DNA of 34,588 nucleotides. Source: a virus. The translations under genes were made by a program, and so were the position numbers. The stretch lies in UHGV virus genome UHGV-0091505; one strand, given 5' to 3'. The notes under the pieces are model-generated. The model had not been told where the DNA came from. It did not search any database and worked only from the letters and a program-made list of their open reading frames with translations. Shown in pieces: positions 1,531 to 34,588 of the stretch (position 1 is the stretch's first letter; each line of letters starts with the position of its first letter).

Positions 1531-1545
1531 TTACCTTTCAGGTGA
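1531..1545. promoter_or_regulatory. operator-like site TTACCTTTCAGGTGA (variant of the prophage operator motif)
   Basis: TTACC-N5-GGTGA; same variant class as a site in the cI/cro intergenic region; lies 40 bp upstream of the LexA box. Confidence 0.35.
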
Positions 1546-1582: not shown

Positions 1583-1602
1583 TACTGTATAAATATACAG
1601 TT
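1583..1602 (+). promoter_or_regulatory. LexA (SOS) box TACTGTATAAATATACAGTT
   Basis: CTGT-N8-ACAG with AT-only spacer at 1585-1600, flanked TA..TT; about 20 nt upstream of SD GGAGAAG and ATG at 1622. Confidence 0.7.
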
Positions 1603-1621: not shown

Positions 1622-1879
1622 ATGCAGCAGTATCACTATCCACTGGAAGACGGATTTACCGAAAGGATTCACACGCCGGGAGGCGTCAGGTCACTGGTGG
1701 AGGGATCGCACTTGATGAAATTACTCCGGGATCTCGATAAGGATGGATTTAATGTCGATGGCCCACTTGCCGAACTGACTGCACTGATTAACTACGTCAC
1801 CAGCTCACAGATGTCTATGCATGATCTGCAAACACATCTCGACTATTGTGCCGAACAATTACGAAAACAAACCAGATAA
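1622..1879 (+). CDS. small SOS-controlled antirepressor-like protein (standalone paralog of the C-terminal domain of the downstream Bro-N antirepressor)
   Basis: ATG at 1622 preceded by GGAGAAG; the track start at 1514 would place the LexA box inside the ORF; translated product aligns with the last ~75 aa of the 2192-2878 protein (PGGVRSLVEGSHLMKLL..LAELTALINYV..DLQTHLDY versus PSGVLGLTENSLLMNLL..AAELTTMFCYI..DIQTHAEY). Confidence 0.55.
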   Translation: MQQYHYPLEDGFTERIHTPGGVRSLVEGSHLMKLLRDLDKDGFNVDGPLAELTALINYVTSSQMSMHDLQTHLDYCAEQLRKQTR

Positions 1880-1882
1880 GGT

Positions 1883-1925
1883 TTGCAATTACCAAGTGGA
1901 GTACTTATATTTACCTTTGCGGTAA
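1883..1925 (+). promoter_or_regulatory. sigma70-type promoter (TTGCAA-17 nt-TATATT) with operator palindrome TTACCTTTGCGGTAA abutting the -10
   Basis: -35 at 1883-1888, -10 at 1906-1911, perfect TTACC-N5-GGTAA at 1911-1925; same -10/operator juxtaposition as at the pL-like promoter. Confidence 0.45.
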
Positions 1926-2019
1926 ATTTACATCGCACTCCTCTTGTGCCATAGTAATCTGGCACTGGCAAAATCCAGTGCCGGGATTGGCGTCCTTGGT
2001 TACTACAGAGGCACATATG

Positions 2020-2036
2020 CCGCATAAGCGGTTTTT
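2020..2036 (+). terminator. weak intrinsic terminator-like hairpin (CCGC-ATAA-GCGG followed by 7 T)
   Basis: Short GC stem plus T-run in the leader between the small antirepressor paralog and the Bro-N gene; stem is only 4-5 bp. Confidence 0.3.
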
Positions 2037-2191
2037 TTATGTGTAAAGCGCACCTATTCTATGGTGGGCTGTGTGGGGGCACCGAAAGGTGCGCCGGGTC
2101 CTTTGTAGCCGGTTACGCCAACCCTGCACAGTTCACCACCAACCGATTGGCGTCGGTAGTGGTGATTAACCTAACTACAAAGGTGATCACT

Positions 2192-2878
2192 ATGACTGCT
2201 AACGTAACCCCATCTGTTTTTCATTTTGAATCAGAAGCAACCATTCGAGCCATTGTTATTGATGGAAATCCCTGGTTTGTTGCCAAAGACGTTATTAAAG
2301 CTCTTCAACTGACAAACCCGACTATGTCAATAAAATCTCTTGATGATGATGAAAGGGCTAAATTTAACTTAGGCCGTCAAGGCGAAACCAATATTATCAA
2401 CGAGTCAGGCCTCTACACACTGATCCTCCGCTGCCGCGACGCAGTGACACCAGGCACTATCCCCTACCGCTTTCGTAAATGGGTTACAGGTGAGGTACTT
2501 CCTCAGATCCGCCGCACCGGAAGTTACATTAAAAACTCGCTCTCGCAGGAAGAACGGATAAAGATGGTTGCCGACCAGGTAGCCAACGCCACGGCGTCAG
2601 CAGTGATGCAGGCGATGAAGATAGAGAACAAAACCTACAACGCCCCACTGAAGCCCGGCTACCGCAGCCTGATACATTCTCCGTCTGGTGTTCTCGGCCT
2701 GACGGAGAACTCACTGCTGATGAATCTGCTGAACCAGTTACAGGAAGACGGGCACGATGTATCTGGCGCGGCAGCGGAGCTGACCACCATGTTCTGCTAC
2801 ATCGTCGGTGTGAGCAAATGCCTGCGTGATATCCAGACACACGCGGAGTACATCAACGACAAGGCTGGGTTCTTCTGA
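2192..2878 (+). CDS. phage antirepressor, Bro-N domain family (Ant-like)
   Basis: ATG at 2192 with SD AAAGGTGA; N-terminal region FHFESEATIRAIVIDGNPWFVAKDVIKALQL..ESGLYTLILRCRD is a Bro-N/antirepressor signature; C-terminal domain is paralogous to ORF 1622-1879. Confidence 0.8.
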   Translation: MTANVTPSVFHFESEATIRAIVIDGNPWFVAKDVIKALQLTNPTMSIKSLDDDERAKFNLGRQGETNIINESGLYTLILRCRDAVTPGTIPYRFRKWVTGEVLPQIRRTGSYIKNSLSQEERIKMVADQVANATASAVMQAMKIENKTYNAPLKPGYRSLIHSPSGVLGLTENSLLMNLLNQLQEDGHDVSGAAAELTTMFCYIVGVSKCLRDIQTHAEYINDKAGFF

Positions 2879-14696: not shown

Positions 14697-14697
14697 C

Positions 14698-15135: not shown

Positions 15136-15186
15136 CTTCTTTCTCCATTAGTGGGTCTGTTACGACCCACAGGTTAATAACAGGCG

Positions 15187-16173: not shown

Positions 16174-16187
16174 TGTCATTTCCTCTC

Positions 16188-18858: not shown

Positions 18859-18872
18859 TTCAATGACTCCGG

Positions 18873-19079: not shown

Positions 19080-19169
19080 ATCAATGACTCCGTACGCAAT
19101 TAAATTATTACCAATTTAACCATATATGATTTATTTATCGTAGATAGTTGACATTTAACGCACAAATTA

Positions 19170-19184
19170 TTACCTTTCAGGTAG
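19170..19184. promoter_or_regulatory. operator-like site TTACCTTTCAGGTAG
   Basis: TTACC-N5-GGTAG; 14/14 identical to the core of the site at 1531-1545; a TTGACA hexamer lies 16 nt upstream. Confidence 0.3.
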
Positions 19185-19506: not shown

Positions 19507-19583
19507 GTGGCATTAGCTCAGTTGGACAGAGCAACCGCCTTCTAAGCGGTTGGTCGCAGGTTCGAATCCTGCATGCCACGCCA
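19507..19583 (+). tRNA. tRNA-Arg (anticodon UCU), argU-like
   Basis: 77 nt cloverleaf folded by hand: acceptor GTGGCAT/ATGCCAC, D-arm GCTC/GAGC, anticodon stem ACCGC/GCGGT with loop CTTCTAA, T-arm GCAGG-TTCGAAT-CCTGC, discriminator G and encoded CCA. Confidence 0.85.
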
Positions 19584-19785
19584 GAATCACGCCTAAGGAC
19601 CGTGATGCCAGAAGTTCCAGGGGCTTGGCGGTGATGGTTTCCCTTGAAGGACTATCACCGCCCTTTTTACAGCAGGACGCCATTGCGATGACTTCATGCT
19701 GTAAACCAGTACAGCCACGGAAGGCATAACTCATTGCTTCCAGTTCGCCCGGTTCGCCGGGCATTTTTTAAGGTGAGATTAGACT

Positions 19786-20157
19786 ATGAGTGACAAAGAC
19801 ATTGAATCTGAAATTCAGGCTAAAGGTTTAGCCGCGCCGCGCGTTACGCCAGACCATATCGAGAGCATTATTGCTCAGGAGGCATATTTCACAGCAGAAG
19901 ATGGTGTCTTTGGCGTAGCCATAAAAGCGAAACATACTGGCGAAGAGGTAAACTACCAGCCGCACGAATCACTTTCTCTGCTGACGTTCTGCGTTCTGGT
20001 GCTGCGCAACGGCTTCACCGTCACCGGAGAGAGCGCCTGTGCAAGCCCGGAAAACTTTGATGCGGAAATTGGTCGGAAGATTGCCCGGCAGAATGCTGTA
20101 AACAAAATCTGGATGCTTGAAGGTTACTTGCTGAAGCAGAAGTTAAGCGAGCAATAA
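19786..20157 (+). CDS. Gp49-like phage protein (N4 gp49 / Sf6 gp66-type, function unknown)
   Basis: 123-aa ORF with SD AAGGTGAG; C-terminal pattern GESACASPENFDAEIGRKIARQNAVNKIWMLEGY recalled as this family; opposite strand to flanking terminase and portal. Confidence 0.5.
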   Translation: MSDKDIESEIQAKGLAAPRVTPDHIESIIAQEAYFTAEDGVFGVAIKAKHTGEEVNYQPHESLSLLTFCVLVLRNGFTVTGESACASPENFDAEIGRKIARQNAVNKIWMLEGYLLKQKLSEQ

Positions 20158-20161: not shown

Positions 20162-20173
20162 GTGACATGTCAC
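20162..20173. repeat. perfect 12-bp palindrome GTGACATGTCAC (copy 2 of 3)
   Basis: 5 nt after the Gp49-like stop, in the convergent gap with terL; followed by a weak hairpin and a T-rich run. Confidence 0.6.
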
Positions 20174-20247: not shown

Positions 20248-21723
20248 TTAAGCATAGGGATCGTAATCTGTGATGGCCTTGCCTTGCTGGTTCTGCTGCC
20301 CGGGAATTCGCAGACGCTTCGACACAGGGAAAGCAAACGTCAGCAGTAGCGCATCGCCTTTACCCGGCGAACGCCCAAGACGCTCTTTGATATCTTCCTT
20401 CGGTTCGATAACGATTTTACCGTCCACACGAACTTTGTACTCTGCCGCCGACAGGTCGTCTGCAGTTTCCTGGTCATCCAGCATGCCGCCCAGCCTCAGC
20501 CATGTCTTACATGAGTTGAACATCTCCCCACGCTTGTTAAGCATCTGCGGGTCAGTGGACGCACCGCCGAACGGAACAAGTTGCCATGTACGTCCCCAGC
20601 CATCACCGATTGACTTCAAACCGGTTCCGTAACCGAAGTCGATGAACACCGCGTCAGCCTGATACTGGTCTTCAAAGTCAGCGATACGCTTCGCCATAAT
20701 CAGATCGTCGGTAGTCTTGTTGCCAGTCCACAGCACCTTACTGTGTAGCCCCTGCCGCAGGTATATCACCGCGTCATCAACGCCTGAATATGCCGGGTCA
20801 ACACCGATTATCACCGGAGCATGCGCCACCTGCGCAGCGGTCACCACCCGTTTCATTGCCTCATCAGTAAGACCGGTAGGGATAAACTGCAATTCAGATG
20901 CATCAGGGAATATGCCGCGCACACGGATTTTAACGAAGTCGCTGTCTTCCCCGTAGTCATCAACCCATTTCTGCAACTGCTGTTTGTTAGTGCCTTCCAC
21001 CGTCCGGCTGTCAATCTGCGCAGTTTTCCAGCGGTGTTTATACTTGCGGAAACATTCACGGAATCGCCCGGTGTTACGTGTAGGGTTTCCGAACGCCACC
21101 CAGATAATCTCAGTGTCTTCGTCCGTAAGCGCACCCTCAGCAACTTCCCACACCAGATCCGCAATGTTCGACGCTTCATCGAATACCACGATGATGCGTT
21201 TGCGCTCGTTGTGTAGTCCGGCGAATGCCTCAGTGTTGTGCTCAGACCAGGGGATTGCGTCAGCTCGCCACCGCTTGTCGTGCCCAGGGTCATTGCTGTA
21301 CATCGCGGTAGCGGTACAGGTAAACCAGTCTTTCGTGATAGCAAGGTTCGACCACTTGATAATTTCCGGCCAGGTCTTCGTTCGTAGCTGGTTGTCGGTG
21401 TTGGCAGTCACCACGACCTTACAATCCTCGCAAGTGGACATGCCCCAGTTGATCAGCATTGAGATGAATGCGGATTTACCAATACCGTGACCAGAAGCGC
21501 GTGCCAGCATAAGCGGCTGATAGCGCGTCTCTGGATTCTGCAGGTGATCACGTATCTCTCGGAACGCATCAGCCTGCCACTGACGTGGGCCGGTGGCATG
21601 TGCCAGTTCAGTCCCCTCTTCCCCCCACGGGAACGCATAGAGGGCATAGCCAAGCGGATCGTGAGTGAACCCTGCAATATCCTCGATCAACTGCTCTTCA
21701 GGAGATAACGCTGTATCTGTCAC
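20248..21723 (-). CDS. terminase large subunit
   Basis: 491 aa; Walker A-like ARASGHGIGKS, ATPase plus nuclease-sized domains; directly downstream of terS with overlapping stop/start. Confidence 0.9.
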   Translation of the reverse strand: MTDTALSPEEQLIEDIAGFTHDPLGYALYAFPWGEEGTELAHATGPRQWQADAFREIRDHLQNPETRYQPLMLARASGHGIGKSAFISMLINWGMSTCEDCKVVVTANTDNQLRTKTWPEIIKWSNLAITKDWFTCTATAMYSNDPGHDKRWRADAIPWSEHNTEAFAGLHNERKRIIVVFDEASNIADLVWEVAEGALTDEDTEIIWVAFGNPTRNTGRFRECFRKYKHRWKTAQIDSRTVEGTNKQQLQKWVDDYGEDSDFVKIRVRGIFPDASELQFIPTGLTDEAMKRVVTAAQVAHAPVIIGVDPAYSGVDDAVIYLRQGLHSKVLWTGNKTTDDLIMAKRIADFEDQYQADAVFIDFGYGTGLKSIGDGWGRTWQLVPFGGASTDPQMLNKRGEMFNSCKTWLRLGGMLDDQETADDLSAAEYKVRVDGKIVIEPKEDIKERLGRSPGKGDALLLTFAFPVSKRLRIPGQQNQQGKAITDYDPYA

Positions 21724-22316
21724 TGATTACCATCCTGACGTTCTTTGAGTCGCTTCCTGGCTGCCGCTATGCGATCAGCAATTGTCACATTCACATTAAC
21801 ATCCAAGCGTTCTTTGAATGCATTGACATCGACGTGCTTGCCAATCAGTTCGAGGTTCTTCACCTTGTCAGGCCATTTAATTTTTTTGAGGATTGTCTCT
21901 ATCGAATCCTCGTTCATGTTCATGATGGTCGATGACAGATCAAAGCCACTAAGCGTAGTGCGCCAGATTTTCGGCCACTCACGGATTGGTTTAAGGCTCC
22001 CATCGTCGTTGAGGATGTCGATCACGTCCATCTGGTCGATCTCCACCAGGCGCATGAGAACGTAATCAGCACTGACACGCATTCGTTTGTTGCGCTCCTC
22101 CATCAGCTCGGCAATCCGTTTCTGAATGCGTTCATCGCGCATCATGACACTGGCTTTAACTGCCGCTGTATTTGGGGAGAATCCTGCGTTAATCGCTGCC
22201 TGAGTCTGGTTTTCAGGCGTTTTGATGTATGACTGGCAATAAGCCTCCTGCATTGCTGTGAGCGGCTTAAATTGCGTTGATTTGCGTTTATAGGTTTTAG
22301 GTTCAGCAGGCATCAT
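21720..22316 (-). CDS. terminase small subunit
   Basis: Probable start at the ATG pair 22316/22313 (MMPAEPK..); the longer track ORF extends through an operator repeat translating to TITTTVTITTVV; DNA-binding type N-terminus. Confidence 0.8.
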   Translation of the reverse strand: MMPAEPKTYKRKSTQFKPLTAMQEAYCQSYIKTPENQTQAAINAGFSPNTAAVKASVMMRDERIQKRIAELMEERNKRMRVSADYVLMRLVEIDQMDVIDILNDDGSLKPIREWPKIWRTTLSGFDLSSTIMNMNEDSIETILKKIKWPDKVKNLELIGKHVDVNAFKERLDVNVNVTIADRIAAARKRLKERQDGNQ

Positions 22317-22333
22317 AACCACCGTGGTAATAG

Positions 22334-22348
22334 TTACCGTTGTGGTAA
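22334..22348. promoter_or_regulatory. operator palindrome TTACCGTTGTGGTAA upstream of terS
   Basis: Perfect TTACC-N5-GGTAA 18 nt upstream of the terS start; preceded on the minus strand by TACTAT (-10-like). Confidence 0.4.
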
Positions 22349-22354
22349 TAGTAC

Positions 22355-22385
22355 CATGCAAAATAAAGCCGCCATAGTTGGCGGC
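22355..22385 (-). terminator. intrinsic terminator between nin-like block and terminase genes
   Basis: On minus strand GCCGCC-AACTAT-GGCGGC followed by TTTATTTTG. Confidence 0.5.
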
Positions 22386-22426
22386 AGTATTCAAAACCCA
22401 TCAAATTTATCATGCATAATCTACTC

Positions 22427-22438
22427 GTGACATGTCAC
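22427..22438. repeat. perfect 12-bp palindrome GTGACATGTCAC (copy 3 of 3)
   Basis: Overlaps the stop codon of the 112-aa gene, upstream of the terminator and terS. Confidence 0.6.
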
Positions 22439-22773
22439 ACTATTAATTTCGTTTCATGCCAGCCTTTAGTCACCCAGCATTGCGAGTCACCATTACACGG
22501 GCATGAATTCACAGGAATTCTCTCGCCGCACTTACCGCAAAGTTTTCTGCTGATCGATTTTATACGCCCGCGCACGCGTACATCATCCTGGCGGATCAGT
22601 AACGCGATATACTCACCAAATTCGTAAGGTGCACGCCCGGGGCGACGAGTGGCACAGTTACGCTCCAGCATTTCAATTTCCTGAGCATCAAGCACAATCT
22701 CCAGCTTACGTACACCGGATGCAGCTTGTCTGGCTCTCTGAGCGGCTTTGCGCTCTGCTGCTGATTTAGCCAT
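22435..22773 (-). CDS. hypothetical Cys-cluster (zinc-binding-like) protein
   Basis: 112 aa; basic N-terminus, CGKCG and CPCNGDSQC clusters; last gene before terS. Confidence 0.45.
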   Translation of the reverse strand: MAKSAAERKAAQRARQAASGVRKLEIVLDAQEIEMLERNCATRRPGRAPYEFGEYIALLIRQDDVRVRGRIKSISRKLCGKCGERIPVNSCPCNGDSQCWVTKGWHETKLIV

Positions 22774-23047
22774 TGATATTCACCTTTATCGCGAACACCT
22801 TTACCGGTTTATCACCGAAGTGCGGATGCGTGATTGTCTTGATTTCATATCCGCCATACGGAACATCAATTCTGCGGCTGGAATCGTCGCGCTTCGGATA
22901 TCCCTTTGTGATAATCAGGCGGTCATACTCCCGGAACATAATTCGCTTATTCCAGTAGTCATTACACAGGCGATACTCTTCCGTTTTCTCTCTGCGAATC
23001 ATGGCATCGAAGTATTCACCTTTGACGGCAAGTTGCAGGTTAGCCAC
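22766..23047 (-). CDS. hypothetical protein (possible ASCH/PUA-like fold)
   Basis: 93-aa ORF in the nin-like block; weak pattern similarity only. Confidence 0.4.
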   Translation of the reverse strand: MANLQLAVKGEYFDAMIRREKTEEYRLCNDYWNKRIMFREYDRLIITKGYPKRDDSSRRIDVPYGGYEIKTITHPHFGDKPVKVFAIKVNING

Positions 23048-23342
23048 GATTAACCTCCTGCGGAGTAGCCTTTACAAGCACTGGTGTAAATCCATCTTCA
23101 TTAAGGTTATGAATATAGACTTCTGTTCTCCTGCGCTCTTCAACGTTTAATATGGTTTCTGGATCATAAACCCATACTTTCATTCGAGTATTCCATGAAG
23201 AAATCGCTTCAGATTTAGTTCGTTTTTCTGGTCCTTGGGCGCCACATTTGCATGACACATAGCGCATTTTCCCTCTGATACTGAATGAGTATCCGATGTT
23301 AAGCACAGTGGAACCACAGAATGGGCAGCGATATAGATTCAT
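23040..23342 (-). CDS. Lar-family restriction alleviation-like protein
   Basis: 100 aa; MNLYRCPFCGS...CKCGAQGP...AISSWNTR matches the Lar-family Cys pattern. Confidence 0.5.
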   Translation of the reverse strand: MNLYRCPFCGSTVLNIGYSFSIRGKMRYVSCKCGAQGPEKRTKSEAISSWNTRMKVWVYDPETILNVEERRRTEVYIHNLNEDGFTPVLVKATPQEVNRG

Positions 23343-23857
23343 AAATCATCCACCTTAGGCGCAGCTGAGACAGCAACATTCCAGAACTCAGAAAACATAT
23401 TGTATGCACCAGATAGATTGGAAGTGGCATACCCTCCAAGCTCACTTCTAATCTGAACAGCTCTCATCATTTCCGGGGTTAACTCCTTCGGCACCATAAC
23501 CCAACCATCCGGAATGACCGGAGAGTTGCCATTTACATCGAAGTTTGGCTCTGCGTCCTGAACCAGGAGGATGTAACCATTCTTGGCAGTATCAAGTTCT
23601 AACGCCTCGGTGACGGTGCCGAAATAGCGATTACCTAAATCAGCATCACAAGTGCTTACATCAATGGAAACTTCCATCCCTTCGATTAATTCTGGCAAGT
23701 TGTAAGTTTGGCTTACAGGCTCTGCTTCCAGCGATGCCAGTGCAATCCGTGCCAGTTCTTCCGCTTCTTCTGCTGGCAGTACAACGCTGCTACCAGGTCC
23801 GTATGTTTCGCGCCACTGCTTGATTGTCAGCAGTCGCTCTTTGGTAATAGTGGTCAT
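23339..23857 (-). CDS. hypothetical protein
   Basis: 172-aa ORF, coupled to neighbours in the nin-like block. Confidence 0.45.
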   Translation of the reverse strand: MTTITKERLLTIKQWRETYGPGSSVVLPAEEAEELARIALASLEAEPVSQTYNLPELIEGMEVSIDVSTCDADLGNRYFGTVTEALELDTAKNGYILLVQDAEPNFDVNGNSPVIPDGWVMVPKELTPEMMRAVQIRSELGGYATSNLSGAYNMFSEFWNVAVSAAPKVDDL

Positions 23858-24093
23858 TTGTTAATCCTCAAAACTTTATGCCCGGGCGCAAAAGCACGCG
23901 TTTTGTCTTTGCTTATTCGCCAGCCATCCTTGCGCGCCTCTTTTGCACAGCCAGCCCATGACGTACCTATATACTCACCGAAGTCTGGCGACTTATATTT
24001 GCCATCTGTACACTGGAGGCAATCACAATAGAGATGCATGGTGTAACTTGCAGCGATAGCCATATCACTCTCCTTTGATGCGAATGCCAGCAA
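23854..24093 (-). CDS. hypothetical Cys-rich small protein
   Basis: 79 aa with CDCLQC cluster. Confidence 0.4.
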   Translation of the reverse strand: MLAFASKESDMAIAASYTMHLYCDCLQCTDGKYKSPDFGEYIGTSWAGCAKEARKDGWRISKDKTRAFAPGHKVLRINK

Positions 24094-24895
24094 GCCAGTT
24101 TCTGATGCCGATATATTCAGCGTTTCTGAAACCGCTTTTTACATATATAAAAGGCAAGCGAAGATTGTGACCATTGGCTGCCAGGTAGTCTTTACAACCC
24201 TGCTCGGTGAAACAGCAGGTCACGAATTCATCAATATCTTTCACAGCAACACGCCGCCATTTTTCTGGTGGCTCCCGAAAGTTTTCATGAAGTAGTTCGA
24301 GACGACGACTTTGGAGTTTATTGGCTTCATTGCCATCTTCATCAACCCAGACAATCCGGTCATAGTCATAATCAGCATCAACAACGATTTCGCGCTTTTG
24401 ATACACACAAAACATAGGATCTGACGTTATTCGATTATCCTGTGTTCGAATATTTTCACCGATGATGCTAAACGAATCTGGTGCAGATTTTGTCTGCAAC
24501 TCTTCGATACGTTCAGCCATCGCAGCACACTCTTCAAAGTTGCTTAATGCTTTTCGCTCCCATTCGGCGCATTGTTTTCCAAGCTCTGCAATCAGCTTGT
24601 CTTTGCCTTCCAGCTCAACGCGCAGCCTCCCAACCGTTAGCGCAATATCCTCGTTCTCCTGGTCGCGGCGTTTGATGTATTGCTGGTTTCTTTCCCGTTC
24701 ATCCAGTAGTGCCAGCACGGTTTCTGGTCCGGCCAGAAATTTGAAGGCGTTGAGCGCATCAATATCCACACCGTAATCTTTAAGTTCCTGTTCACTTAAC
24801 AAATCATCATCAGCTGGCAACATTAACAGGCGTTCCATTGCTGGAATTGCACGTTCCGCCGCCTCACGCAGTGCCTGGTAATTAATTTCGCTCAC
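24065..24895 (-). CDS. hypothetical protein (coiled-coil, Ea22/Ead-like flavour)
   Basis: 276 aa, central coiled-coil, Cys-containing C-terminal domain. Confidence 0.45.
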   Translation of the reverse strand: MSEINYQALREAAERAIPAMERLLMLPADDDLLSEQELKDYGVDIDALNAFKFLAGPETVLALLDERERNQQYIKRRDQENEDIALTVGRLRVELEGKDKLIAELGKQCAEWERKALSNFEECAAMAERIEELQTKSAPDSFSIIGENIRTQDNRITSDPMFCVYQKREIVVDADYDYDRIVWVDEDGNEANKLQSRRLELLHENFREPPEKWRRVAVKDIDEFVTCCFTEQGCKDYLAANGHNLRLPFIYVKSGFRNAEYIGIRNWLAGIRIKGE

Positions 24896-25512
24896 TGGTT
24901 GCCTCCTTTGCGAAGCTGGGCAGCAAAGTCAACTAACCACTCAGTCATTTCAACCTTCCCTACCAGGTCTGAACCAGGGTGCATACAGCAATCACTCTGC
25001 GCCGCTTTGAAATCCTTATACTCATATTCTTGGGCCACCAGATTTTTTGCAGCTTCTATAGCAGCATCCACGCCCTGCGCCCGTATTTCAGACAGGAAAG
25101 CATCAGTGGCTGGAGTTTCAACACGGATGCTGTCGCGCAAGATGAAAAATGCATTGAGCATTCCAGTCTCTGGCACTTCATCCTGATGCTTCTCATACGC
25201 ATCAAGAGCCTTCATCATCTCAGGTCCGAATGGTTGAGGGTGCGCAGACTTCAGCCCCGCATTCTCCGCCGCCAGCGCCGAAAACTTCTCGTGTGCCAAC
25301 TTAACAGCCGCATCAGCCTGCTTAATTGACTCAATCGCTTTCTGCTGGTCTTCGGCCAGCGCATTAGCACGCACCAGTTGCACTTCCAGTTGCGTTGCCA
25401 AATCGCTGATCAGCTTTGCCACACTGCGCATATCAACGGCACCACATTCTGCTTTCAGTTCCGAAGCCATCTCATGCCCGGCGGCAACTAACCATTTGAT
25501 ATTATTTTCCAT
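24892..25512 (-). CDS. hypothetical protein
   Basis: 206-aa ORF, helical, coupled to downstream gene. Confidence 0.45.
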   Translation of the reverse strand: MENNIKWLVAAGHEMASELKAECGAVDMRSVAKLISDLATQLEVQLVRANALAEDQQKAIESIKQADAAVKLAHEKFSALAAENAGLKSAHPQPFGPEMMKALDAYEKHQDEVPETGMLNAFFILRDSIRVETPATDAFLSEIRAQGVDAAIEAAKNLVAQEYEYKDFKAAQSDCCMHPGSDLVGKVEMTEWLVDFAAQLRKGGNQ

Positions 25513-25573
25513 CTTTACCCTCGCTTATCCACATAACTTATTGATTACATTGATAACTAAAAAGATCGTCGAT

Positions 25574-25918
25574 TCAGAACTCTTCGATGTTCCAGCCACC
25601 ACCTGCTTTCTTTGGTTTAACCGTTACCCCGATGATTCGGAACGGATACTGATCTGCGGCGACTTTGGTTTTCACCCTGGCGTCGTCGGTCCAGAAACCT
25701 TTCACTTCGTGCAGTTCCATCTCGCCGGTGGCGAGCATCACAGCAAAATCGGGCGTATAGAACGTGTTGTCAGCTAACCGCAGCTTGATACCCTCGAATC
25801 GATACCAGGCGATTTCCCCTGCACGTTTACGCAGCTCAAGGTGCTGGCAATACGCAGATTCTGTTTTGTTCATCTGGCCTGTTTTGAGTCGACCAAGAGC
25901 CTGTATCTGTTTTCTCAT
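25574..25918 (-). CDS. DUF1064-family phage protein
   Basis: 114 aa; pattern YCQHLELRKRAGEIAWYRFEGIKLRL..YTPDF..EVKGFWTDDARVKTK typical of DUF1064. Confidence 0.55.
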   Translation of the reverse strand: MRKQIQALGRLKTGQMNKTESAYCQHLELRKRAGEIAWYRFEGIKLRLADNTFYTPDFAVMLATGEMELHEVKGFWTDDARVKTKVAADQYPFRIIGVTVKPKKAGGGWNIEEF

Positions 25919-25921
25919 GAT

Positions 25922-25998
25922 TTACCCCTGAGGTAATTAAAAACCACATAAGACACTAAATCAATAGAGTTTAGAATATTTTGTTACCCAACAGGTAA
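25922..25998 (-). promoter_or_regulatory. operator-flanked promoter (minus strand TTGATT-17 nt-TTTAAT) between the P-like gene and the nin-like block
   Basis: Two perfect palindromes TTACCCCTGAGGTAA (25922-25936) and TTACCCAACAGGTAA (25984-25998) bracket a -35/-10 pair (plus-strand 25959-25964 and 25936-25941); same architecture as the pL-like promoter. Confidence 0.45.
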
Positions 25999-26035
25999 TT
26001 ATCAAGACGTAAAAAAATGCGCTATCGCGCTGGTA

Positions 26036-26836
26036 TTACTTGATAAATCCTGCCGCCTTTCCCCGCCTGTATTCCTCCATCAGCCACTGCGCCGGTGTTA
26101 TCCCCCCAAGGGTGGCGGCGTTAGGCATGCACCCGAAACTTCGCCCTGGTGGATGGTAAACGTCTCTCCCTGTGTTCGGAGGCGTACTCATGGGTTCTGG
26201 CTTTGCCTGTATGCTGATCACCGGATCGGGTATCTGCTGTCCGGAAGCCACCTTTTTCGCCCAATCATCGAGCAGCCTGCGCGCGTGTTTCTCAACCTCA
26301 ATCTCGCTAAGCTGGCGCTGATACATTGCACGGCGGGTATCACATACGACCCAGTACATAACCGGATGTCGCCACGGGAATCTTTCGGGACCACCAGGAT
26401 ATAAACTTTTTTCCTTGCTGTACCGGTGAAACTCCGCCATCACATCGTCAATGGTGACGCCAAGAACCATCTTGCTGTCTTTACACCACTTGATAAATTG
26501 CCCTGGCGACGGCCAGAACGGAGATTCACTGGCGCGGGCGTGGCGCATACCAGCAGAAACCTGTTCACGGGTTCGGATCCCCCCTTCGGCAAACGCAGCA
26601 ATCCACTGCTGTTTTGCAGCAACTTCCTGCTCTGGCGTCTTCAGGTTGGTTACCACTGCCGCCGGAAACAGTTGTTTCAGCTGTTTGAAAAGGGCATCAA
26701 CAAGCCTCTCTGCTGACATGTTCACCACATTATCATTGTTGACGTATTGATGCTCATAACCTGACATGCGAGAAAGGGCTTCTCCGTCACGGTTTTGTAT
26801 CGCGGTAAAAACGTTGTTCACAAGAAATCCTCCCAT
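26036..26836 (-). CDS. replication protein P-like helicase loader
   Basis: Segment QQWIAAFAEGGIRTREQVSAGMRHARASESPFWPSPGQFIKWC aligns with lambda P (RRQWVLAFRENGITTMEQVNAGMRVARRQNRPFLPSPGQFVAWC); start codon choice uncertain (overlaps O-like gene by 19 nt). Confidence 0.85.
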   Translation of the reverse strand: MGGFLVNNVFTAIQNRDGEALSRMSGYEHQYVNNDNVVNMSAERLVDALFKQLKQLFPAAVVTNLKTPEQEVAAKQQWIAAFAEGGIRTREQVSAGMRHARASESPFWPSPGQFIKWCKDSKMVLGVTIDDVMAEFHRYSKEKSLYPGGPERFPWRHPVMYWVVCDTRRAMYQRQLSEIEVEKHARRLLDDWAKKVASGQQIPDPVISIQAKPEPMSTPPNTGRDVYHPPGRSFGCMPNAATLGGITPAQWLMEEYRRGKAAGFIK

Positions 26837-27633
26837 GCTTCAGGGCTGTTCCAGTGCGGAACATTGTTATCAGGTAATGTTGATTGCTTCTGTCTGCTAA
26901 TCTGCAGCCGCCTTGCCAGCTTCTGCTCCCACTGTGCCTGATGGTATGCCTTACCCTCAGCCATCCAGTAAATTCTGAACTCTGCAAGTTCCTGTGCCGT
27001 TGGCAGACTGTCCAGGTAGATTCCCTGCAATGAGCTTTTCCGAAGAAAGTCATCTGATGGCTGCCATTGTTCATGCATGACAAATTTGCCTAATTGCCCT
27101 GGCCCACCAGGAGGAACAAAGTTATTCATCACGGCGTTGTTTGCGCCTGGGTCATGAGGCACAGAATCTCCGCTTTTTGTCCTGCTCTCCCTCTCTTGGT
27201 TAAATGACTGGTTATATGACTGGTTCTGGATCCCGTTTTTGGGATCATTCAACATCCCGTTTTTGGGATCATTCAACATCCCGTTTTTGGGTATATTCCC
27301 GTTTTCGGGAACATTACCGTTTTCGGGTTCATTACGTCCTTCTAGGTTGCCTTTAATGTTCCCTTTTTTGGTTATATTAAGAGAGAAAACCCGCACTCTT
27401 TTCGTCGCTCCCTTTCTCTCTCCGGTATCTGAAATAAGCCCCATTTTCATGAGCGATATAAGCCCGGCCTGCACGGTTTTTTTATTCAGGCAAGTGTCTT
27501 TAACGAGGCGTTCTATGCTGGGGTAGCAGAGGTTATATTCATCGGCTCTGTCAGCCATCGAGAGCAGTATGAGCTTTAATGACGAGCTACCTGGATCTGT
27601 CTCCCAGGCCCAATCTGTTGCATGTCTGCTCAT
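26818..27633 (-). CDS. replication initiator, O-like (HTH N-terminal domain, iteron-containing)
   Basis: 271 aa; N-terminal winged-HTH-like region; internal DNA iterons encode the NG-rich repeat PENGNVPENGNIPKNGMLNDPKNGMLNDPKNG; followed by P-like gene. Confidence 0.75.
   Translation of the reverse strand: MSRHATDWAWETDPGSSSLKLILLSMADRADEYNLCYPSIERLVKDTCLNKKTVQAGLISLMKMGLISDTGERKGATKRVRVFSLNITKKGNIKGNLEGRNEPENGNVPENGNIPKNGMLNDPKNGMLNDPKNGIQNQSYNQSFNQERESRTKSGDSVPHDPGANNAVMNNFVPPGGPGQLGKFVMHEQWQPSDDFLRKSSLQGIYLDSLPTAQELAEFRIYWMAEGKAYHQAQWEQKLARRLQISRQKQSTLPDNNVPHWNSPEAWEDFL
27231..27330. repeat. replication origin iterons (about five direct repeats, core CCCGTTTT(T/C)GGG) inside the O-like gene
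   Basis: Two perfect 24-bp units TCCCGTTTTTGGGATCATTCAACA then three shortened variants; AT-rich stretch follows. Confidence 0.7.
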
Positions 27634-27648
27634 GATTAATCTCCGCTA

Positions 27649-27849
27649 TCAGCTTGAATGTTGTGGGGAGGAATTAATCATGATCTGCTTAATCTCTGCC
27701 CTGATGCGACGGTTTGATTCCATGGTGCACTCAACACAGTGTCCGTTGTAAACCCAGCGTTCACTGTCATGTCCGTGCTTACATGGTTTTCCGGTGTAGT
27801 AGCGTTTAAGTCCGCGCTTTGCGGCATCAATACGTGTAATGATTTCCAT
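27649..27849 (-). CDS. small Cys/His-cluster protein in cII-equivalent position
   Basis: Start taken at ATG 27849 (MEIITRIDAAKRGLKRYYTGKPCKHGH..CVEC), SD AGG; the track ORF has a hydrophobic 21-aa extension. Confidence 0.45.
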   Translation of the reverse strand: MEIITRIDAAKRGLKRYYTGKPCKHGHDSERWVYNGHCVECTMESNRRIRAEIKQIMINSSPQHSS

Positions 27850-27929
27850 GGTAAGACCTGTTATTAGTATTGGGATTACGGTTATTTTGTGCTGACACAA
27901 AAAAAAGATCAACCATATTTGGTTTTTTA

Positions 27930-27944
27930 TTACCTTTGAGGTGC
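27930..27944. promoter_or_regulatory. operator-like site TTACCTTTGAGGTGC in the cro-cII intergenic region
   Basis: Variant of the TTACC-N5-GGTAA motif, next to the post-cro hairpin. Confidence 0.3.
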
Positions 27945-27978
27945 GAATAGATATGAAAAGACCGCCGGATGACGGTCT
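27945..27978 (-). terminator. tR1-like hairpin terminator after cro
   Basis: Minus-strand AGACCG..CGGTCT stem followed by TTTCATATCTATT. Confidence 0.4.
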
Positions 27979-27999
27979 ACAGAGGGTTGTGGCTGGATA

Positions 28000-28230
28000 T
28001 CATGAGTAGAAGAAGTATGCCAGTTCTGCTTTTGAGCGCAGCCATTGTCTTGTTTTACAGGCTTTAAAAAGCCCATTCATCAATACCTTACCTGGCATTT
28101 TGCGCTTACCTGTTAAGTGAGTCTGGATATAGTGACTCGTCGTTCCGGCTTCCTGTGCGAAGGCTTCACGCTCATCCGGAGTAAGTGCAAGCCAGTGCTT
28201 TTTGAAATCGAAATGTCCGTTATCGCTCAT
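28000..28230 (-). CDS. Cro-like HTH regulator
   Basis: 76 aa, divergent from the repressor gene across an operator-rich region; HTH-like segment EAGTTSHYIQTHLTGKRKMP. Confidence 0.6.
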   Translation of the reverse strand: MSDNGHFDFKKHWLALTPDEREAFAQEAGTTSHYIQTHLTGKRKMPGKVLMNGLFKACKTRQWLRSKAELAYFFYS

Positions 28231-28266
28231 AGCTATTGCCTGATATTTATTTCAGATAATAAATAT

Positions 28267-28329
28267 TCACCCATAAGGTAACAAAAATCAAGGATAGTTA
28301 CCTATGGGGTGCATTTACCTGTTGGGTAA
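28267..28329. promoter_or_regulatory. OR-like operator region (three sites) with divergent promoters
   Basis: TCACCCATAAGGTAA (28267-28281), TTACCTATGGGGTGC (28298-28312) and perfect TTACCTGTTGGGTAA (28315-28329) between cro-like and repressor genes. Confidence 0.5.
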
Positions 28330-28384
28330 TATTGCTTTAAATTGAATCATCTACTGATTCATATATGAGGCGATTTTCCAGAAA

Positions 28385-28969
28385 ATGAAAAGTATCCAGG
28401 ACGTCCGCAGGCAAAATCTCAACGACTTGATCGACCGTGAATTCAATGGTGTTCAGACGCGGATGGCAGAAAAACTTGGAACTCAGGCAAATCTGGTAAA
28501 CCGCTGGGCTCTTGGCAAGAAGGTTATCGGCGACCAGGTTGCGCGAAAAATTGAAGCTGCCGCCAATAAACCCCGTAACTGGCTTGATATCGATCGCTCG
28601 CTTTCTCAGGAAGGTTTTCAGCCTGTCGGACCAAGCGACATTGGTCAACTGGCGGCTCACAACCTGGAACGCTGGATGAGCGAAAGCCGCGACCTTTCAA
28701 CACAGGGAAAACTTCACCGCGCATCCGGCGTCGCCCAGGTGACAATCAGCCGCCTGTTAAACAATGAGGTCAGCGTTTCCATTTCCACCCTGGAGAATGT
28801 TGCATCCGCATTCGGGCGTCACGGCTATGAATTACTGATTCACCCGCACGACCCTGCGACCATCAACTATGACCGCTCGCGCTACGCATTGTTACCCGAA
28901 ACCGAGAAAGCAAAGATCGAAAGTTACATTGAATTTGTCATCAACCAGAACGAAAAAAACAAACAATAA
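28385..28969 (+). CDS. prophage repressor, dual-HTH type without S24 peptidase domain
   Basis: 194 aa; two HTH-like segments (QTRMAEKLGTQANLVNRWALGKK and HRASGVAQVTISRLLNNE); no Ser-Lys autocleavage motif recognisable; divergent from cro, same strand as the early-left operon. Confidence 0.7.
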   Translation: MKSIQDVRRQNLNDLIDREFNGVQTRMAEKLGTQANLVNRWALGKKVIGDQVARKIEAAANKPRNWLDIDRSLSQEGFQPVGPSDIGQLAAHNLERWMSESRDLSTQGKLHRASGVAQVTISRLLNNEVSVSISTLENVASAFGRHGYELLIHPHDPATINYDRSRYALLPETEKAKIESYIEFVINQNEKNKQ

Positions 28970-28989
28970 AATCATACTTTTCAGTAAGT

Positions 28990-29015
28990 AAGCCGCCTTC
29001 TGGCGGCTTTTTTAT
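28990..29015 (+). terminator. intrinsic terminator after repressor gene
   Basis: AAGCCGCC-TTCT-GGCGGCTT followed by TTTTTTATT. Confidence 0.65.
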
Positions 29016-29026
29016 TGCCTGTTCGA

Positions 29027-29103
29027 TTACCTGTCGGGTAATTTTTTTAACTCATATCTATTGACATCAAACCAAATACGAATAATCATTACCTCAACGG
29101 TAA
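29027..29103 (+). promoter_or_regulatory. pL-like promoter (TTGACA-16 nt-TAATCA) flanked by two operator palindromes
   Basis: TTACCTGTCGGGTAA (29027-29041), -35 29061-29066, -10 29083-29088, TTACCTCAACGGTAA (29089-29103). Confidence 0.55.
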
Positions 29104-31980: not shown

Positions 31981-32623
31981 GAAATACACACTAATCTATG
32001 CAGATCCACCTTGGGTATACCGGGACAAAGCCGCGGATGGTAATCGCGGTGCTGGTTTTAAATATCCGGTTATGAGTGTGCTGGATATCTGCCGCCTTCC
32101 TGTGTGGGATTTGGCCGATGAAAACTGTCTGTTGGCCATGTGGTGGGTGCCAACACAACCACTCGAAGCACTAAAGGTTGTTGAAGCCTGGGGATTTCGT
32201 CTGATGACGATGAAGGGCTTCACGTGGATAAAATGTGGTAGTCGACAACCAGATAAACTGGTTATGGGTATGGGACACATGACTCGCGCCAATAGTGAAG
32301 ATTGCCTGTTTGCAGTAAAGGGAAAACTACCTCCACGCATTAATGCAGGGATCGTTCAGTCATTTACCGCACCGCGGCTTGAGCATTCAAGAAAACCAGA
32401 TGTCGTTCGTGAAAAACTTGTGCAATTGTTAGGCGATGTTTCTCGCATTGAACTGTTCGCCCGCCAGACGTCTCATGGCTTCGATGTTTGGGGTAATCAG
32501 TGCGAAGACCCGGCAGTGCAACTACACCCTGGATACGCGTTGGATATTGGCGGATTAACAAATGCATTCAGCAATGCTCCGGTGTCACCAATAGACAACC
32601 AGGGGCGGGAGCGTGCAGCATGA
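31973..32623 (+). CDS. MT-A70 family N6-adenine DNA methyltransferase
   Basis: Start ATG 31973 ([14 protein letters not shown]); DPPW catalytic motif; stop overlaps phosphatase start. Confidence 0.8.
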
Positions 32624-34538: not shown

Positions 34539-34588
34539 AATTCACCCGTATAGAAACAATTTTCATGACGGTATGAGAGTATACCTTT

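What the first reader, a model, noticed from the sequence alone, without database searches (positions are those of the whole stretch)
22334..29103. Distributed operator network: TTACC-N5-GGTAA palindromes at pL, pR, a post-P promoter and terS
Seven perfect 15-bp palindromes (1911, 22334, 25922, 25984, 28315, 29027, 29089) and five close variants (1531, 19170, 27930, 28267, 28298) share the half-site TTACC. At three promoters the palindrome abuts the -10 hexamer. Sites outside the immunity region imply the repressor, or a second regulator with the same specificity, directly gates late and accessory modules, analogous in concept to dispersed stoperators in some actinophages. Sites outside intergenic regions were not exhaustively scanned.
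Basis: seen in the sequence. Interest (0 to 1): 0.75.

Follow-up and report, generated by a model that had tools for sequence, protein, structure and literature searches.

The report
Prophage repressor operators at many promoters
The repeated TTACC-N5-GGTAA palindromes are real and almost certainly the binding sites of this common E. coli prophage's repressor, placed at nearly every promoter it must silence, but the same dispersed site set is already annotated in the related Salmonella phage epsilon15.

Summary
Observation confirmed. The window holds 7 perfect and 4 one-mismatch TTACC-N5-GGTAA palindromes (0 and 0.5 expected), all within the 7.5% of the window that is non-coding. An unbiased palindrome count ranks this motif first.

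The window is a phiV10/epsilon15-type (Uetakevirus) prophage. It carries an SPC32H-type repressor (Rep), a small antirepressor (Ant) and a LexA box in front of ant. The motif sits at matching positions in phages of E. coli, Salmonella, Enterobacter and Klebsiella, as conserved half-sites inside otherwise diverged intergenic DNA.

- Four sites start on the last T of a -10 hexamer: pL, the post-replication promoter, terS, and a Bro-N/Ant module.
- At pL and the post-replication promoter, a pair of sites 62 bp apart flanks the promoter in all six genomes (63 bp in one pair).

P1's dispersed C1 operators are a closer analogue.

The authors' own epsilon15 GenBank record already marks seven such sites as repressor-binding, including those before terS, the head genes and the tail fibre. 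This is therefore already known. The immunity region occurs in about 10% of complete E. coli genomes.

Side observations: two further palindrome families, and an IsrK/C4-controlled second antirepressor.

The parts
28385..28969 (+). Rep, the prophage repressor (194 aa). It has an N-terminal Cro/YdaS-like HTH and a C-terminal HTH_3-fold domain.
   Evidence: phmmer against the PDB matches 5d50_A (SPC32H Repressor) at E 4e-42 over residues 1-190. It is 100% identical to the phiV10, ZX5 and PAS61 repressors. Pfam finds HTH_3 and YdaS-like domains and no S24 peptidase.
28000..28230 (-). Cro-like small HTH protein, divergent from rep.
   Evidence: Matches phrog_35 'transcriptional repressor' at E 5.6e-13. 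It aligns only weakly with the Rep HTH and has a different predicted recognition helix.
28267..28281 (.). Operator at pR (TCACCCATAAGGTAA). The imperfect TCACC half-site is conserved in relatives.
   Evidence: It lies in the spacer and -35 region of the minus-strand promoter TTGTTA-17-TATTAT at 28284..28256. The TCACC variant recurs in epsilon15 at 33388, SPC32H at 34437, phiV10 at 32775 and Tyrion at 35028.
28298..28312 (.). Middle operator of the rep/cro intergenic trio (TTACCTATGGGGTGC, two mismatches).
   Evidence: It lies 17 bp from 28315. The homologous site is perfect in epsilon15 (33358), SPC32H (34407) and Klebsiella phage BUCT711 (6419 or 6402).
28315..28329 (.). Rep-proximal operator of the trio (perfect).
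   Evidence: Syntenic with epsilon15 33341 and phiV10 32727.
29027..29041 (.). pL upstream operator ('A'), 20 bp upstream of the -35.
   Evidence: It follows the rep terminator at 28990-29009.
29061..29089 (+). pL promoter, TTGACA-17-AATCAT.
   Evidence: Best promoter-like match in the region, 10 of 12 positions. The CTATTGAC block is invariant in six genomes.
29089..29103 (.). pL downstream operator ('B'). It begins on the last T of the -10 and lies 62 bp centre-to-centre from A.
   Evidence: The spacing is 62 bp in five genomes and 63 bp in BUCT711.
25984..25998 (.). Post-replication promoter, upstream operator (A).
   Evidence: It follows a conserved GC hairpin plus T7 run. It is homologous to the epsilon15 site 35906-35922, which is annotated 'repressor'.
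25936..25964 (-). Post-replication promoter (inferred): TTGATT-17-TTTAAT, with the same 28-nt geometry as pL.
   Evidence: The CTATTGA block and its distance to the operator are conserved in six genomes. The -10 is weak (no A at -11) and no transcription start data exist.
25922..25936 (.). Post-replication promoter, downstream operator (B). It abuts the -10, lies 3 nt before the ATG of the DUF1064 gene, and is 62 bp from A.
22334..22348 (.). terS operator 1. It begins on the last T of an extended -10, TGgTACTAT (minus strand, 22356..22348).
   Evidence: TGnTACTAT is conserved in all five aligned genomes. It is homologous to the epsilon15 site 12-27, annotated 'repressor'.
22316..22330 (.). terS operator 2 (TAACCACCGTGGTAA), 18 bp from operator 1. 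It overlaps the terS ribosome-binding site; the ATG is at 22313.
22368..22385 (-). Intrinsic terminator immediately upstream of the terS promoter and operators.
27930..27944 (.). Weak operator (two mismatches) just downstream of the cro-like gene's terminator (27959-27978, minus strand).
   Evidence: One-mismatch sites lie at the same place in phiV10 (33112), Tyrion (35365) and BUCT711 (6032).
19170..19184 (.). Operator overlapping the -10 position of a plus-strand promoter (TTGACA at 19148-19153). That promoter points at tRNA-Arg and a gp49/66-family gene, away from the head genes.
   Evidence: the ATGTCAA block is invariant. tRNA-Arg(TCT) is at 19507-19583. Phage_gp49_66 is at 19786-20157. 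It is homologous to the epsilon15 site 2931-2947, annotated 'repressor'.
1531..1545 (.). Operator in the divergent tail-fibre/ant intergenic region, 15 bp upstream of the inferred ant -35 (TGGATA, 1560-1565).
   Evidence: The site is perfect in epsilon15 (19896, annotated 'repressor'), SPC32H, Tyrion and BUCT711.
1585..1600 (.). LexA box CTGTATAAATATACAG in the ant promoter.
   Evidence: Conserved in six genomes.
1622..1879 (+). Ant, the small antirepressor (85 aa).
   Evidence: Matches 5d50_E 'Anti-repressor protein' at E 2.1e-46.
1883..1911 (+). Promoter TTGCAA-17-TATATT of the second antirepressor module.
1911..1925 (.). Operator beginning on the last T of that -10.
   Evidence: Perfect in phiV10, Tyrion and BUCT711. 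Absent from epsilon15 and SPC32H, which lack the module.
1962..2143 (+). IsrK-like sRNA (1962-2038, with terminator) and C4-like antisense RNA (2057-2143).
   Evidence: Rfam RF01394 at 63.8 bits and RF01695 at 79.5 bits, both above the gathering threshold.
2192..2878 (+). Bro-N protein with a C-terminal SPC32H-Ant-like domain (a second antirepressor).
   Evidence: Pfam Bro-N. phrog_130 Ant and phrog_450. The C-terminal domain is 40% identical to the small Ant, E 1e-15.
34581..34588 (.). First 8 bases (ATACCTTT) of a further conserved site upstream of int, cut off by the end of the window.
   Evidence: Complete sites lie at the same place in phiV10 (26870 TTACCTTAAAGGTAT), epsilon15 (26882), SPC32H (26960) and Tyrion (28568).

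Best explanation
The TTACC-N5-GGTAA palindromes are the operators of the prophage's SPC32H-type repressor, Rep (28385-28969).

**Layout (read from the sequence).** The genome is organised as insulated transcription units, and several of them begin with an intrinsic terminator followed by a promoter. Rep operators sit on or beside essentially every promoter that must be silent in the lysogen:
- the pR/rep switch (three sites)
- pL (a pair)
- a second early promoter after the replication genes (a pair)
- the promoter at the start of the late operon, before terS (two adjacent sites)
- the promoter of an IsrK/C4-controlled Bro-N/Ant antirepressor
- a promoter pointing at tRNA-Arg and a gp49/66-family gene
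- the ant/tail-fibre intergenic region
- the region upstream of int

**How repression would work (inferred).** At four promoters the operator starts on the last base of the -10 hexamer and so covers the transcription start. Bound Rep would then exclude RNA polymerase. At pL and the post-replication promoter, a second operator 62 bp upstream (about six helical turns, so on the same face) flanks the promoter. Rep is described as a tetramer with two DNA-reading units, so one tetramer probably bridges both sites.

**Induction (inferred from SPC32H).** LexA cleavage would derepress the small Ant, which disassembles Rep and frees all units at once. That includes the second, Rep-repressed antirepressor, which would reinforce the switch.

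**Shown versus inferred.** Shown here: the motif statistics, site placement, conservation, and the homology of Rep and Ant. Inferred: actual Rep binding, the promoters themselves (no transcription start data), tetramer bridging, and the feed-forward loop.
For: **Enrichment and placement.**
- 7 perfect and 11 sites with at most one mismatch, against 0 and 0.49 expected.
- All 11 lie in the 7.5% non-coding DNA.
- The motif is the top-ranked palindrome in an unbiased count.

**The repressor system.**
- Rep matches 5d50_A at E 4e-42, and Ant matches 5d50_E at E 2e-46.
- A LexA box lies in front of ant.
- Rep is described as binding palindromic DNA as a tetramer, with one tetramer sufficient for repression (PMC9638917, citing Kim et al. 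2016).
- The identical Rep protein, overexpressed in phage ZX5, cut endolysin and holin transcripts by about 99.97-99.99% and abolished free phage (PMC9782041; identity shown).

**Conservation.**
- The same motif is 10- to 40-fold over expectation at matching positions in epsilon15, phiV10, SPC32H, Tyrion and Klebsiella phage BUCT711.
- Alignments show invariant half-sites with variable N5 spacers and flanks, and conserved spacings of 62, 17-18 and 30-31 bp.
- The epsilon15 GenBank record marks seven homologous sites as 'protein_bind: repressor'.

**Promoter geometry.**

**Link between protein domain and half-site.**
- The Rep N-terminal domain is better conserved than the C-terminal domain (52% against 37% identity to SPC32H), and the NLVNRW segment is invariant.
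- A distant Pseudomonas phage cI shares only the N-terminal domain and is flanked by four TTACC-N4-GGTAA sites, against 0.06 expected. The half-site therefore tracks the domain.
Against: - The three primary papers (Kropinski 2007; Kim & Ryu 2013; Kim 2016) are not in the held library, so I cannot say which sites have been tested.
- The promoter calls are consensus matches. The scan found no more promoter-like sites than shuffled sequence gives (8 found, 10.1 expected).
- The inferred -10 elements at the post-replication promoter and at the 19148 promoter are weak.
- Sites 1531, 19170 and 27930 are imperfect. At the head and tail-fibre positions, the operator lies 45-60 bp upstream of the putative late-strand promoter core rather than on it.
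- A 62-bp loop is tight. Two separately bound Rep units are equally compatible with the data.
- The cro-like protein could share some of the sites.
Confidence: 0.85

Rival explanations
1. The dispersed sites are bound mainly or additionally by a second regulator, such as the cro-like protein (28000-28230). It would use them during lytic growth to turn promoters down, as lambda Cro shares CI's operators.
For: The cro-like protein is a small HTH protein in a 'transcriptional repressor' PHROG family. It is divergent from rep, with three operators between the two genes. It aligns weakly with the Rep HTH (E 0.004).
Against: Its predicted recognition helix (TSHYIQTHL) differs from Rep's NLVNRW segment. 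The half-site tracks the Rep N-terminal domain, even in a distant Pseudomonas phage. The epsilon15 authors assigned the sites to the repressor.
Confidence: 0.25
2. The sites outside the immunity region are stoperator-like roadblocks. They would stop elongating RNA polymerase rather than block initiation.
For: Operators 25922 and 22316 lie downstream of the inferred transcription starts, immediately before the first start codon. Several sites follow terminators, where read-through would need to be stopped.
Against: - The sites are symmetric. Stoperators are asymmetric 13-mers whose orientation matters (PMC9283540).
- There are only about 13 sites in 7 clusters.
- None lies within the 16-kb late operon (3094-19079) or inside any other multi-gene unit.
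- Every cluster is next to a conserved promoter-like element.
Confidence: 0.1
3. The palindrome is not a transcription-factor site. It would instead be the target of a DNA methyltransferase or restriction system, a host factor, or a packaging signal near terS.
For: Bipartite motifs with a fixed spacer resemble restriction-modification targets. The phage encodes an adenine methyltransferase. Two copies sit at the terS start.
Against: - Every site with at most one mismatch is intergenic and at promoter-like elements. A modification target should scatter through coding DNA.
- The motif is conserved across phages with different methyltransferase sets.
- The terS copies are the same motif as those flanking rep.
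Confidence: 0.02

Closest known systems
Repressor-binding sites annotated in Salmonella phage epsilon15 (GenBank AY150271 / NC_004775; Kropinski et al. 2007)
   Same: The motif is the same (TTACC-N5-GGTAA within 16-17-bp features). The repressor is homologous. The dispersed positions match: before terS, before the head genes, between ant and the tail fibre, at pL, and after the replication gene.
   Different: - The epsilon15 record marks 7 sites. It omits the rep/cro trio, the second member of the post-replication pair, and the lysis and int sites, although the motif is present at each.
- epsilon15 has a third pL site and lacks the Bro-N/Ant module with its operator.
- The phiV10-type records carry no operator annotation at all.
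SPC32H Rep/Ant/LexA antirepression switch (Kim & Ryu 2013; Kim et al. 2016; PDB 5D50, 5D4Z)
   Same: Rep and Ant are homologous. A LexA box precedes ant. The operator motif and site layout match.
   Different: The window's Rep is only 42% identical overall. The window also has a second antirepressor, Bro-N fused to an Ant-like domain, behind IsrK-like and C4-like RNAs and a Rep operator. SPC32H lacks this.
Phage P1 C1 repressor with 22 dispersed operators, and the P1 immI region (c4 antisense RNA, icd, ant)
   Same: One primary repressor controls many scattered promoters. These include a second immunity module that combines a C4 antisense RNA with an antirepressor (PMC8546580; C4 match). This is the closest functional analogue.
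   Different: P1 operators are asymmetric 17-mers (ATTGCTCTAATAAATTT). C1 is unrelated to Rep. P1 uses Coi and Lxc rather than a LexA-controlled Ant.
Stoperators of cluster A mycobacteriophages (L5, Bxb1)
   Same: Repressor sites are distributed beyond the immunity region.
   Different: Stoperators are asymmetric 13-mers bound by a monomer. There are more than 20 of them, they depend on orientation, they lie in short gaps within operons, and they act on elongation (PMC9283540). Here the sites are symmetric and few, lie beside promoters, and are absent from within operons.
Lambda CI with its OL and OR operators
   Same: Three adjacent operators lie between divergent repressor and cro-like genes, with further operators at pL.
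   Different: Rep has no S24 autocleavage domain and is induced through an antirepressor. The operators extend to late and accessory promoters. The units appear to be insulated by terminators with their own promoters, rather than linked by antitermination (this last point is inferred).

Membership tests
Uetakevirus (epsilon15/SPC32H-type) Rep operator regulon | A Rep homologue encoded divergently from a small cro-like gene | tested here: met
   Matches 5d50_A at E 4e-42. It is 100% identical to phiV10 p40 and 42% identical to epsilon15 gp38. The cro-like gene is at 28000-28230.
Uetakevirus (epsilon15/SPC32H-type) Rep operator regulon | A 15-bp palindrome TTACC-N5-GGTAA, strongly over-represented | tested here: met
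   for the window. for five relatives.
Uetakevirus (epsilon15/SPC32H-type) Rep operator regulon | Sites at the same map positions as those annotated 'repressor' in epsilon15 | tested here: met
   Annotation. Alignments A1-A5 place window sites 22334, 19170, 1531, 29027, 29089 and 25984 opposite six of the seven annotated epsilon15 sites. The seventh (32479-32494, a third pL site) has no counterpart in the window.
Uetakevirus (epsilon15/SPC32H-type) Rep operator regulon | A small Ant antirepressor under a LexA box | tested here: met
   Matches 5d50_E at E 2.1e-46. CTGTATAAATATACAG lies at 1585-1600.
Uetakevirus (epsilon15/SPC32H-type) Rep operator regulon | Rep physically binds the palindromes as a tetramer | not testable with these tools
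   Only second-hand evidence is available: PMC9638917 summarising Kim et al. 2016. The primary papers are not held.
Cluster A mycobacteriophage stoperators | An asymmetric site bound by a monomer, with function dependent on orientation | tested here: not met
   The sites are perfect palindromes. Rep is a homologue of a tetrameric repressor. The family definition comes from PMC9283540.
Cluster A mycobacteriophage stoperators | More than 20 sites in short intergenic gaps inside operons, away from promoters | tested here: not met
   There are 13 sites in 7 clusters. None lies within 3094-19079 or inside other multi-gene units. All lie beside promoter-like elements.
Cluster A mycobacteriophage stoperators | Blocks transcription elongation | not testable with these tools
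   This needs in vitro or in vivo transcription assays.
P1-type C1 regulon and immI | A C1-family repressor with the asymmetric 17-bp operator ATTGCTCTAATAAATTT | tested here: not met
   The motif is different and symmetric. Rep's Pfam matches are HTH_3 and YdaS-like only. The P1 definition comes from PMC8546580.
P1-type C1 regulon and immI | A C4 antisense RNA upstream of an antirepressor gene, transcribed from a promoter controlled by the primary repressor | tested here: inconclusive
   A C4 RNA match (79.5 bits) and a downstream Bro-N/Ant gene are present, with a Rep-type operator on the upstream promoter. No icd-like gene was looked for, and regulation is untested.
Lambda-type CI switch | RecA-stimulated autocleavage through an S24 peptidase domain | tested here: not met
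   Rep has no Peptidase_S24 match.

The most novel reading that the evidence does not exclude
Uetakeviruses may run a single-tier lysogeny circuit. In this reading every transcription unit, including the late operon, is a terminator-operator-promoter cassette gated directly by Rep. A Rep tetramer would clamp 62-bp operator pairs around the promoter. Timing after induction would be set by a second, so far unassigned regulator that reads the AACCATATATGGTT palindromes lying beside the Rep operators at the lysis, head, tail-fibre and post-cro promoters.
Probability: 0.25. Interest if true: 0.45.

Novelty: already known. Interest (0 to 1): 0.2.

Why it matters
This immunity region sits in about one in ten complete E. 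coli genomes. The same Rep/Ant system is a structural model for antirepressor-driven induction. Knowing that Rep's operators cover essentially all promoters explains how one protein keeps the whole prophage silent without a lambda-style cascade. That coverage includes the late operon, a tRNA unit and a second antirepressor.

The result also gives a ready site list for ChIP or reporter work. As a discovery it adds little, because the dispersed sites were already annotated in epsilon15. The increments here are a fuller site list, the conserved 62-bp pair geometry, and Rep control of the IsrK/C4-Bro-N/Ant module.

Tried and rejected
**Literature.** I tried to read Kropinski et al. 2007 (PubMed 17825342, PMC2698709), Kim & Ryu 2013 (PMC3807360) and Kim et al. 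2016 (PMC4983836 and its DOI). None is held. A full-text search for a degenerate consensus string I recalled from memory found nothing. Prior knowledge therefore rests on the epsilon15 GenBank annotation and on secondary citations.

**Chance.** Rejected.

**Methylation, restriction-modification or packaging target.** Rejected. All good sites are intergenic and at promoter-like elements, and the motif is conserved across phages with different methyltransferases.

**Stoperator membership.** Rejected, because the symmetry and distribution features are not met.

**Cro-like protein with the same specificity.** The pairwise comparison is weak and the predicted recognition helix differs. This stays open.

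**Promoter scans as independent evidence.** Not usable, because the number of promoter-like hits does not exceed shuffles. I relied on cross-genome conservation of the -35 and -10 blocks instead.

**The second palindrome (AACCATATATGGTT).** By eye it does not fit the IHF, CRP or DnaA-box consensus sequences. It is absent from the rep/cro intergenic region, so it is not a classical Cro operator.

**Technical note.** Loci fetched by accession were mostly not exported to the Python sandbox, so cross-genome scans were done with the DNA search and DNA alignment.

Full report
**1.

Dinucleotide-preserving shuffles give none. With one mismatch there are 11 sites against 0.49 expected.

It lies 18 bp from 22334.
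At that stringency the window has 34 hits against about 15 expected, and 20 of the 23 two-mismatch hits are in genes. Sequence alone does not carry those two.
- I built a gene map from the ORF list and from annotated relatives. Under it, 7.5% of the window is non-coding.
- All 11 sites with at most one mismatch fall in that 7.5%. The sites form 7 clusters. Even counting clusters rather than sites, the chance of this is about 1e-8 (my arithmetic on the figures).
- An unbiased count of every 5-N(0-10)-5 palindrome puts this motif first in the window (7 observed, about 0.08 expected) and first in phage SPC32H (10 observed, about 0.09 expected).

**2. What the window is**

The region is about 97% identical to phiV10-type Uetakevirus podophages such as PAS61, phiv142-3, phiV10 and ZX5. 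Late genes run on the minus strand from terS (ATG at 22313) to the tail fibre (26-1426). The rep gene (28385-28969, plus strand) is divergent from a cro-like gene (28000-28230). The integrase gene int is at 33282-34538.

| Element | Evidence |
|---|---|
| Rep | Homologue of the crystallised SPC32H repressor, 5d50_A, E 4e-42 |
| Ant (85-aa ORF, 1622-1879) | Homologue of the SPC32H antirepressor, 5d50_E, E 2e-46 |
| LexA box | Near-consensus CTGTATAAATATACAG at 1585-1600, just upstream of ant, conserved in six genomes |

Rep has no S24 autocleavage domain. The immunity system is therefore the SPC32H type: LexA controls Ant, and Ant inactivates Rep.

The window's Rep is identical to that of phage ZX5. 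Overexpressing Rep in ZX5 abolished free phage and cut holin and endolysin transcripts by more than 99.9% (PMC9782041).

**3. The same motif sits at the same places across the genus**

| Phage | Sites with at most one mismatch |
|---|---|
| epsilon15 | 15 |
| phiV10 | 14 |
| SPC32H | 18 |
| Enterobacter phage Tyrion | 15 |
| Klebsiella phage BUCT711 | 13 |

Expectation in each genome is 0.4-0.8.

Alignments of five intergenic regions (A1-A5) show the classic footprint. The TTACC and GGTAA half-sites are invariant, while the N5 spacer and much of the flanks differ.

Spacings are conserved as well:

- 62 bp centre-to-centre for the pL pair (63 bp in BUCT711).
- 62 bp for the post-replication pair in all six genomes.
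- 17 bp plus 30-31 bp in the rep/cro trio.
- 18 bp at terS.

The pR-proximal site keeps an imperfect TCACC half-site in every genome. That looks like tuned affinity rather than decay.

**4. Where the sites sit relative to promoters**

- **pL.** TTGACA-17-AATCAT at 29061-29089 is the best promoter match in the region. Operator 29089 begins on the last T of the -10. Operator 29027 lies 20 bp upstream of the -35, just after the rep terminator.
- **Post-replication promoter.** The region 25922-25998 copies the pL geometry exactly on the minus strand: hairpin plus T7 run, operator A, conserved CTATTGA -35, 17-nt spacer, TTTAAT, then operator B, ending 3 nt before the ATG of a DUF1064 gene.
- **terS.** A terminator (22385-22368) is followed by a conserved extended -10, TGgTACTAT (22356-22348). 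Its last T opens operator 22348-22334. The second operator reaches the terS ribosome-binding site.
- **Site 1911.** It opens on the last T of TTGCAA-17-TATATT at 1883-1911.
- **pR.** Minus strand, 28284-28256, with operator 28267 in its spacer and -35 region.
- **Site 19170.** It overlaps the -10 position of a conserved plus-strand TTGACA at 19148. That promoter points away from the head genes, towards tRNA-Arg(TCT) at 19507-19583 and a Phage_gp49_66 gene at 19786-20157.
- **Site 1531.** It lies 15 bp upstream of the inferred ant -35.

These promoter assignments rest on conservation. The consensus scan alone finds no more hits than shuffled sequence, and no transcription start data exist.

**5. 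Link between Rep and the motif**

- Three sites lie between rep and cro, and two lie just downstream of rep.
- The Rep N-terminal domain is the better conserved part (52% against 37% identity to SPC32H Rep), with an invariant NLVNRW segment in the predicted recognition helix.
- A distant Pseudomonas phage cI shares only this N-terminal domain, at 39% identity. It is flanked by four TTACC-N4-GGTAA palindromes, against 0.06 expected. The half-site is the same and the spacer is one base shorter, as expected if the domain reads TTACC and the oligomerisation domain sets the spacing.
- Rep is reported to bind palindromic DNA as a tetramer whose DNA-binding pairs come from different dimers, with one tetramer sufficient for repression (PMC9638917 summarising Kim et al. 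2016).
- That fits one tetramer bridging each 62-bp pair, which is about 5.9 helical turns and so places both sites on the same face. This step is inference.

**6. Prior knowledge**

The epsilon15 GenBank and RefSeq records carry seven 'protein_bind: repressor, lysogeny' features:

- before terS (12-27)
- before the head genes (2931-2947)
- between ant and the tail fibre (19895-19911)
- three at pL
- one after the replication gene (35906-35922)

These are the homologues of window sites 22334, 19170, 1531, 29027, 29089 and 25984. The third epsilon15 pL site (32479-32494) has no counterpart in the window.

The dispersed-operator idea is therefore already on record for the type phage of the genus. 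I could not read the papers to see how much was tested. The phiV10-type records carry no such annotation. The epsilon15 record omits the rep/cro trio, the second post-replication site, and the lysis and int sites, all of which the motif scan finds.

**7. Comparison with known systems**

- **Stoperators.** Membership fails. Stoperators are asymmetric, orientation-dependent 13-mers, number more than 20, and lie inside operons (PMC9283540). Here the sites are symmetric, number about 13 in 7 clusters, lie beside promoters, and are absent from the 16-kb late operon.
- **P1.** This is a closer functional analogue. P1's C1 repressor has 22 dispersed operators (PMC8546580), and its immI region couples a C4 antisense RNA to an antirepressor.
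- **A P1-immI-like module in the window.** The promoter and operator at 1883-1925 are followed by an IsrK-like sRNA (1962-2038) and a C4-like RNA (2057-2143), both above Rfam gathering scores. Next comes a Bro-N protein (2192-2878) whose C-terminal domain is 40% identical to the small Ant.
- **Inferred feed-forward loop.** Rep probably represses a second antirepressor, so that once LexA-controlled Ant lifts repression the switch reinforces itself.

**8. Verdict**

The mechanism is ordinary operator-promoter occlusion by a known repressor family. Novelty is low: the feature is already annotated in epsilon15, and the immunity region is present in 540 of 5426 complete E. coli genomes.

Two further palindrome families and a fully conserved non-coding block were seen in passing. 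They are the more open questions.

Noticed in passing
window 1491-1504, 19118-19131, 27911-27924, 1870-1883 (weaker), half-site at 25942-25951; L003 (phiV10) 24736-24749; L005 (Tyrion) 26452, 34215, 35385, 37308: A second palindrome family, AACCATATATGGTT.
- Counts: 4 sites with at most two mismatches in the window against 0.09 expected; Tyrion 5 against 0.13; SPC32H 3 against 0.09.
- It is perfect in the lysis promoter region of phiV10 and Tyrion.
- It always lies 24-57 bp from a Rep operator on the lytic-strand side.
- Its position relative to the -35 and -10 varies, and it is absent from the rep/cro intergenic region.
- It may be the site of a second regulator. It is not annotated in epsilon15.
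   Followed up: partly
window 2925-2936, 20162-20173, 22427-22438; L004 (SPC32H) 2145, 19634, 38629 (and 26696 with one mismatch): There are three perfect copies of the 12-bp palindrome GTGACATGTCAC, against about 0.03 expected. Each sits beside an intrinsic terminator at the end of a transcription unit or module boundary. The same sequence lies at equivalent places in SPC32H. Function unknown.
   Followed up: partly
window 1883-2878: A P1-immI-like or Gifsy-1-like module. It consists of a Rep-operated promoter, an IsrK-like sRNA (1962-2038), a C4-like antisense RNA (2057-2143), and a Bro-N protein with a C-terminal domain homologous to the small SPC32H-type Ant (40% identity). This is a second antirepressor under combined Rep and RNA control.
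   Followed up: partly
window 19087-19143 (minus strand, upstream of the gp3-like gene at 18873-19079): A block of about 57 bp of non-coding DNA is essentially invariant across phages of E. coli, Salmonella, Enterobacter and Klebsiella, although the surrounding sequence diverges (alignment A3). It has no Rfam match. It may be the late head-gene promoter and leader.
   Followed up: no
window 34581-34588 (end of the window): The window ends inside another conserved operator-like site upstream of int. ATACCTTT is the start of ATACCTTTAAGGTAA, which is complete in phiV10, epsilon15, SPC32H and Tyrion. A further conserved site before the lysis genes lies outside the window.
   Followed up: partly
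window 21720-22394 (minus strand); L003 41-715; L001 20221-20895: The terS gene of phiV10 and PAS61 is annotated from an upstream TTG (224 aa), which swallows both operators and the promoter. The ATG at 22313 matches the epsilon15 start and is conserved, so those annotated starts are probably too long.
   Followed up: partly
L008 (Pseudomonas phage PseuP_224) 2422, 2461, 3297, 3323: A distant cI shares only Rep's N-terminal domain. It is flanked by four TTACC-N4-GGTAA palindromes: the same half-site with a spacer one base shorter.
   Followed up: partly
window 19699-19714: A second CTGT-N8-ACAG match (CTGTAAACCAGTACAG) lies between tRNA-Arg and the gp49/66-family gene. It departs from the AT-rich centre of the LexA consensus and may be chance (3 matches in the window, 0.71 expected).
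   Followed up: no
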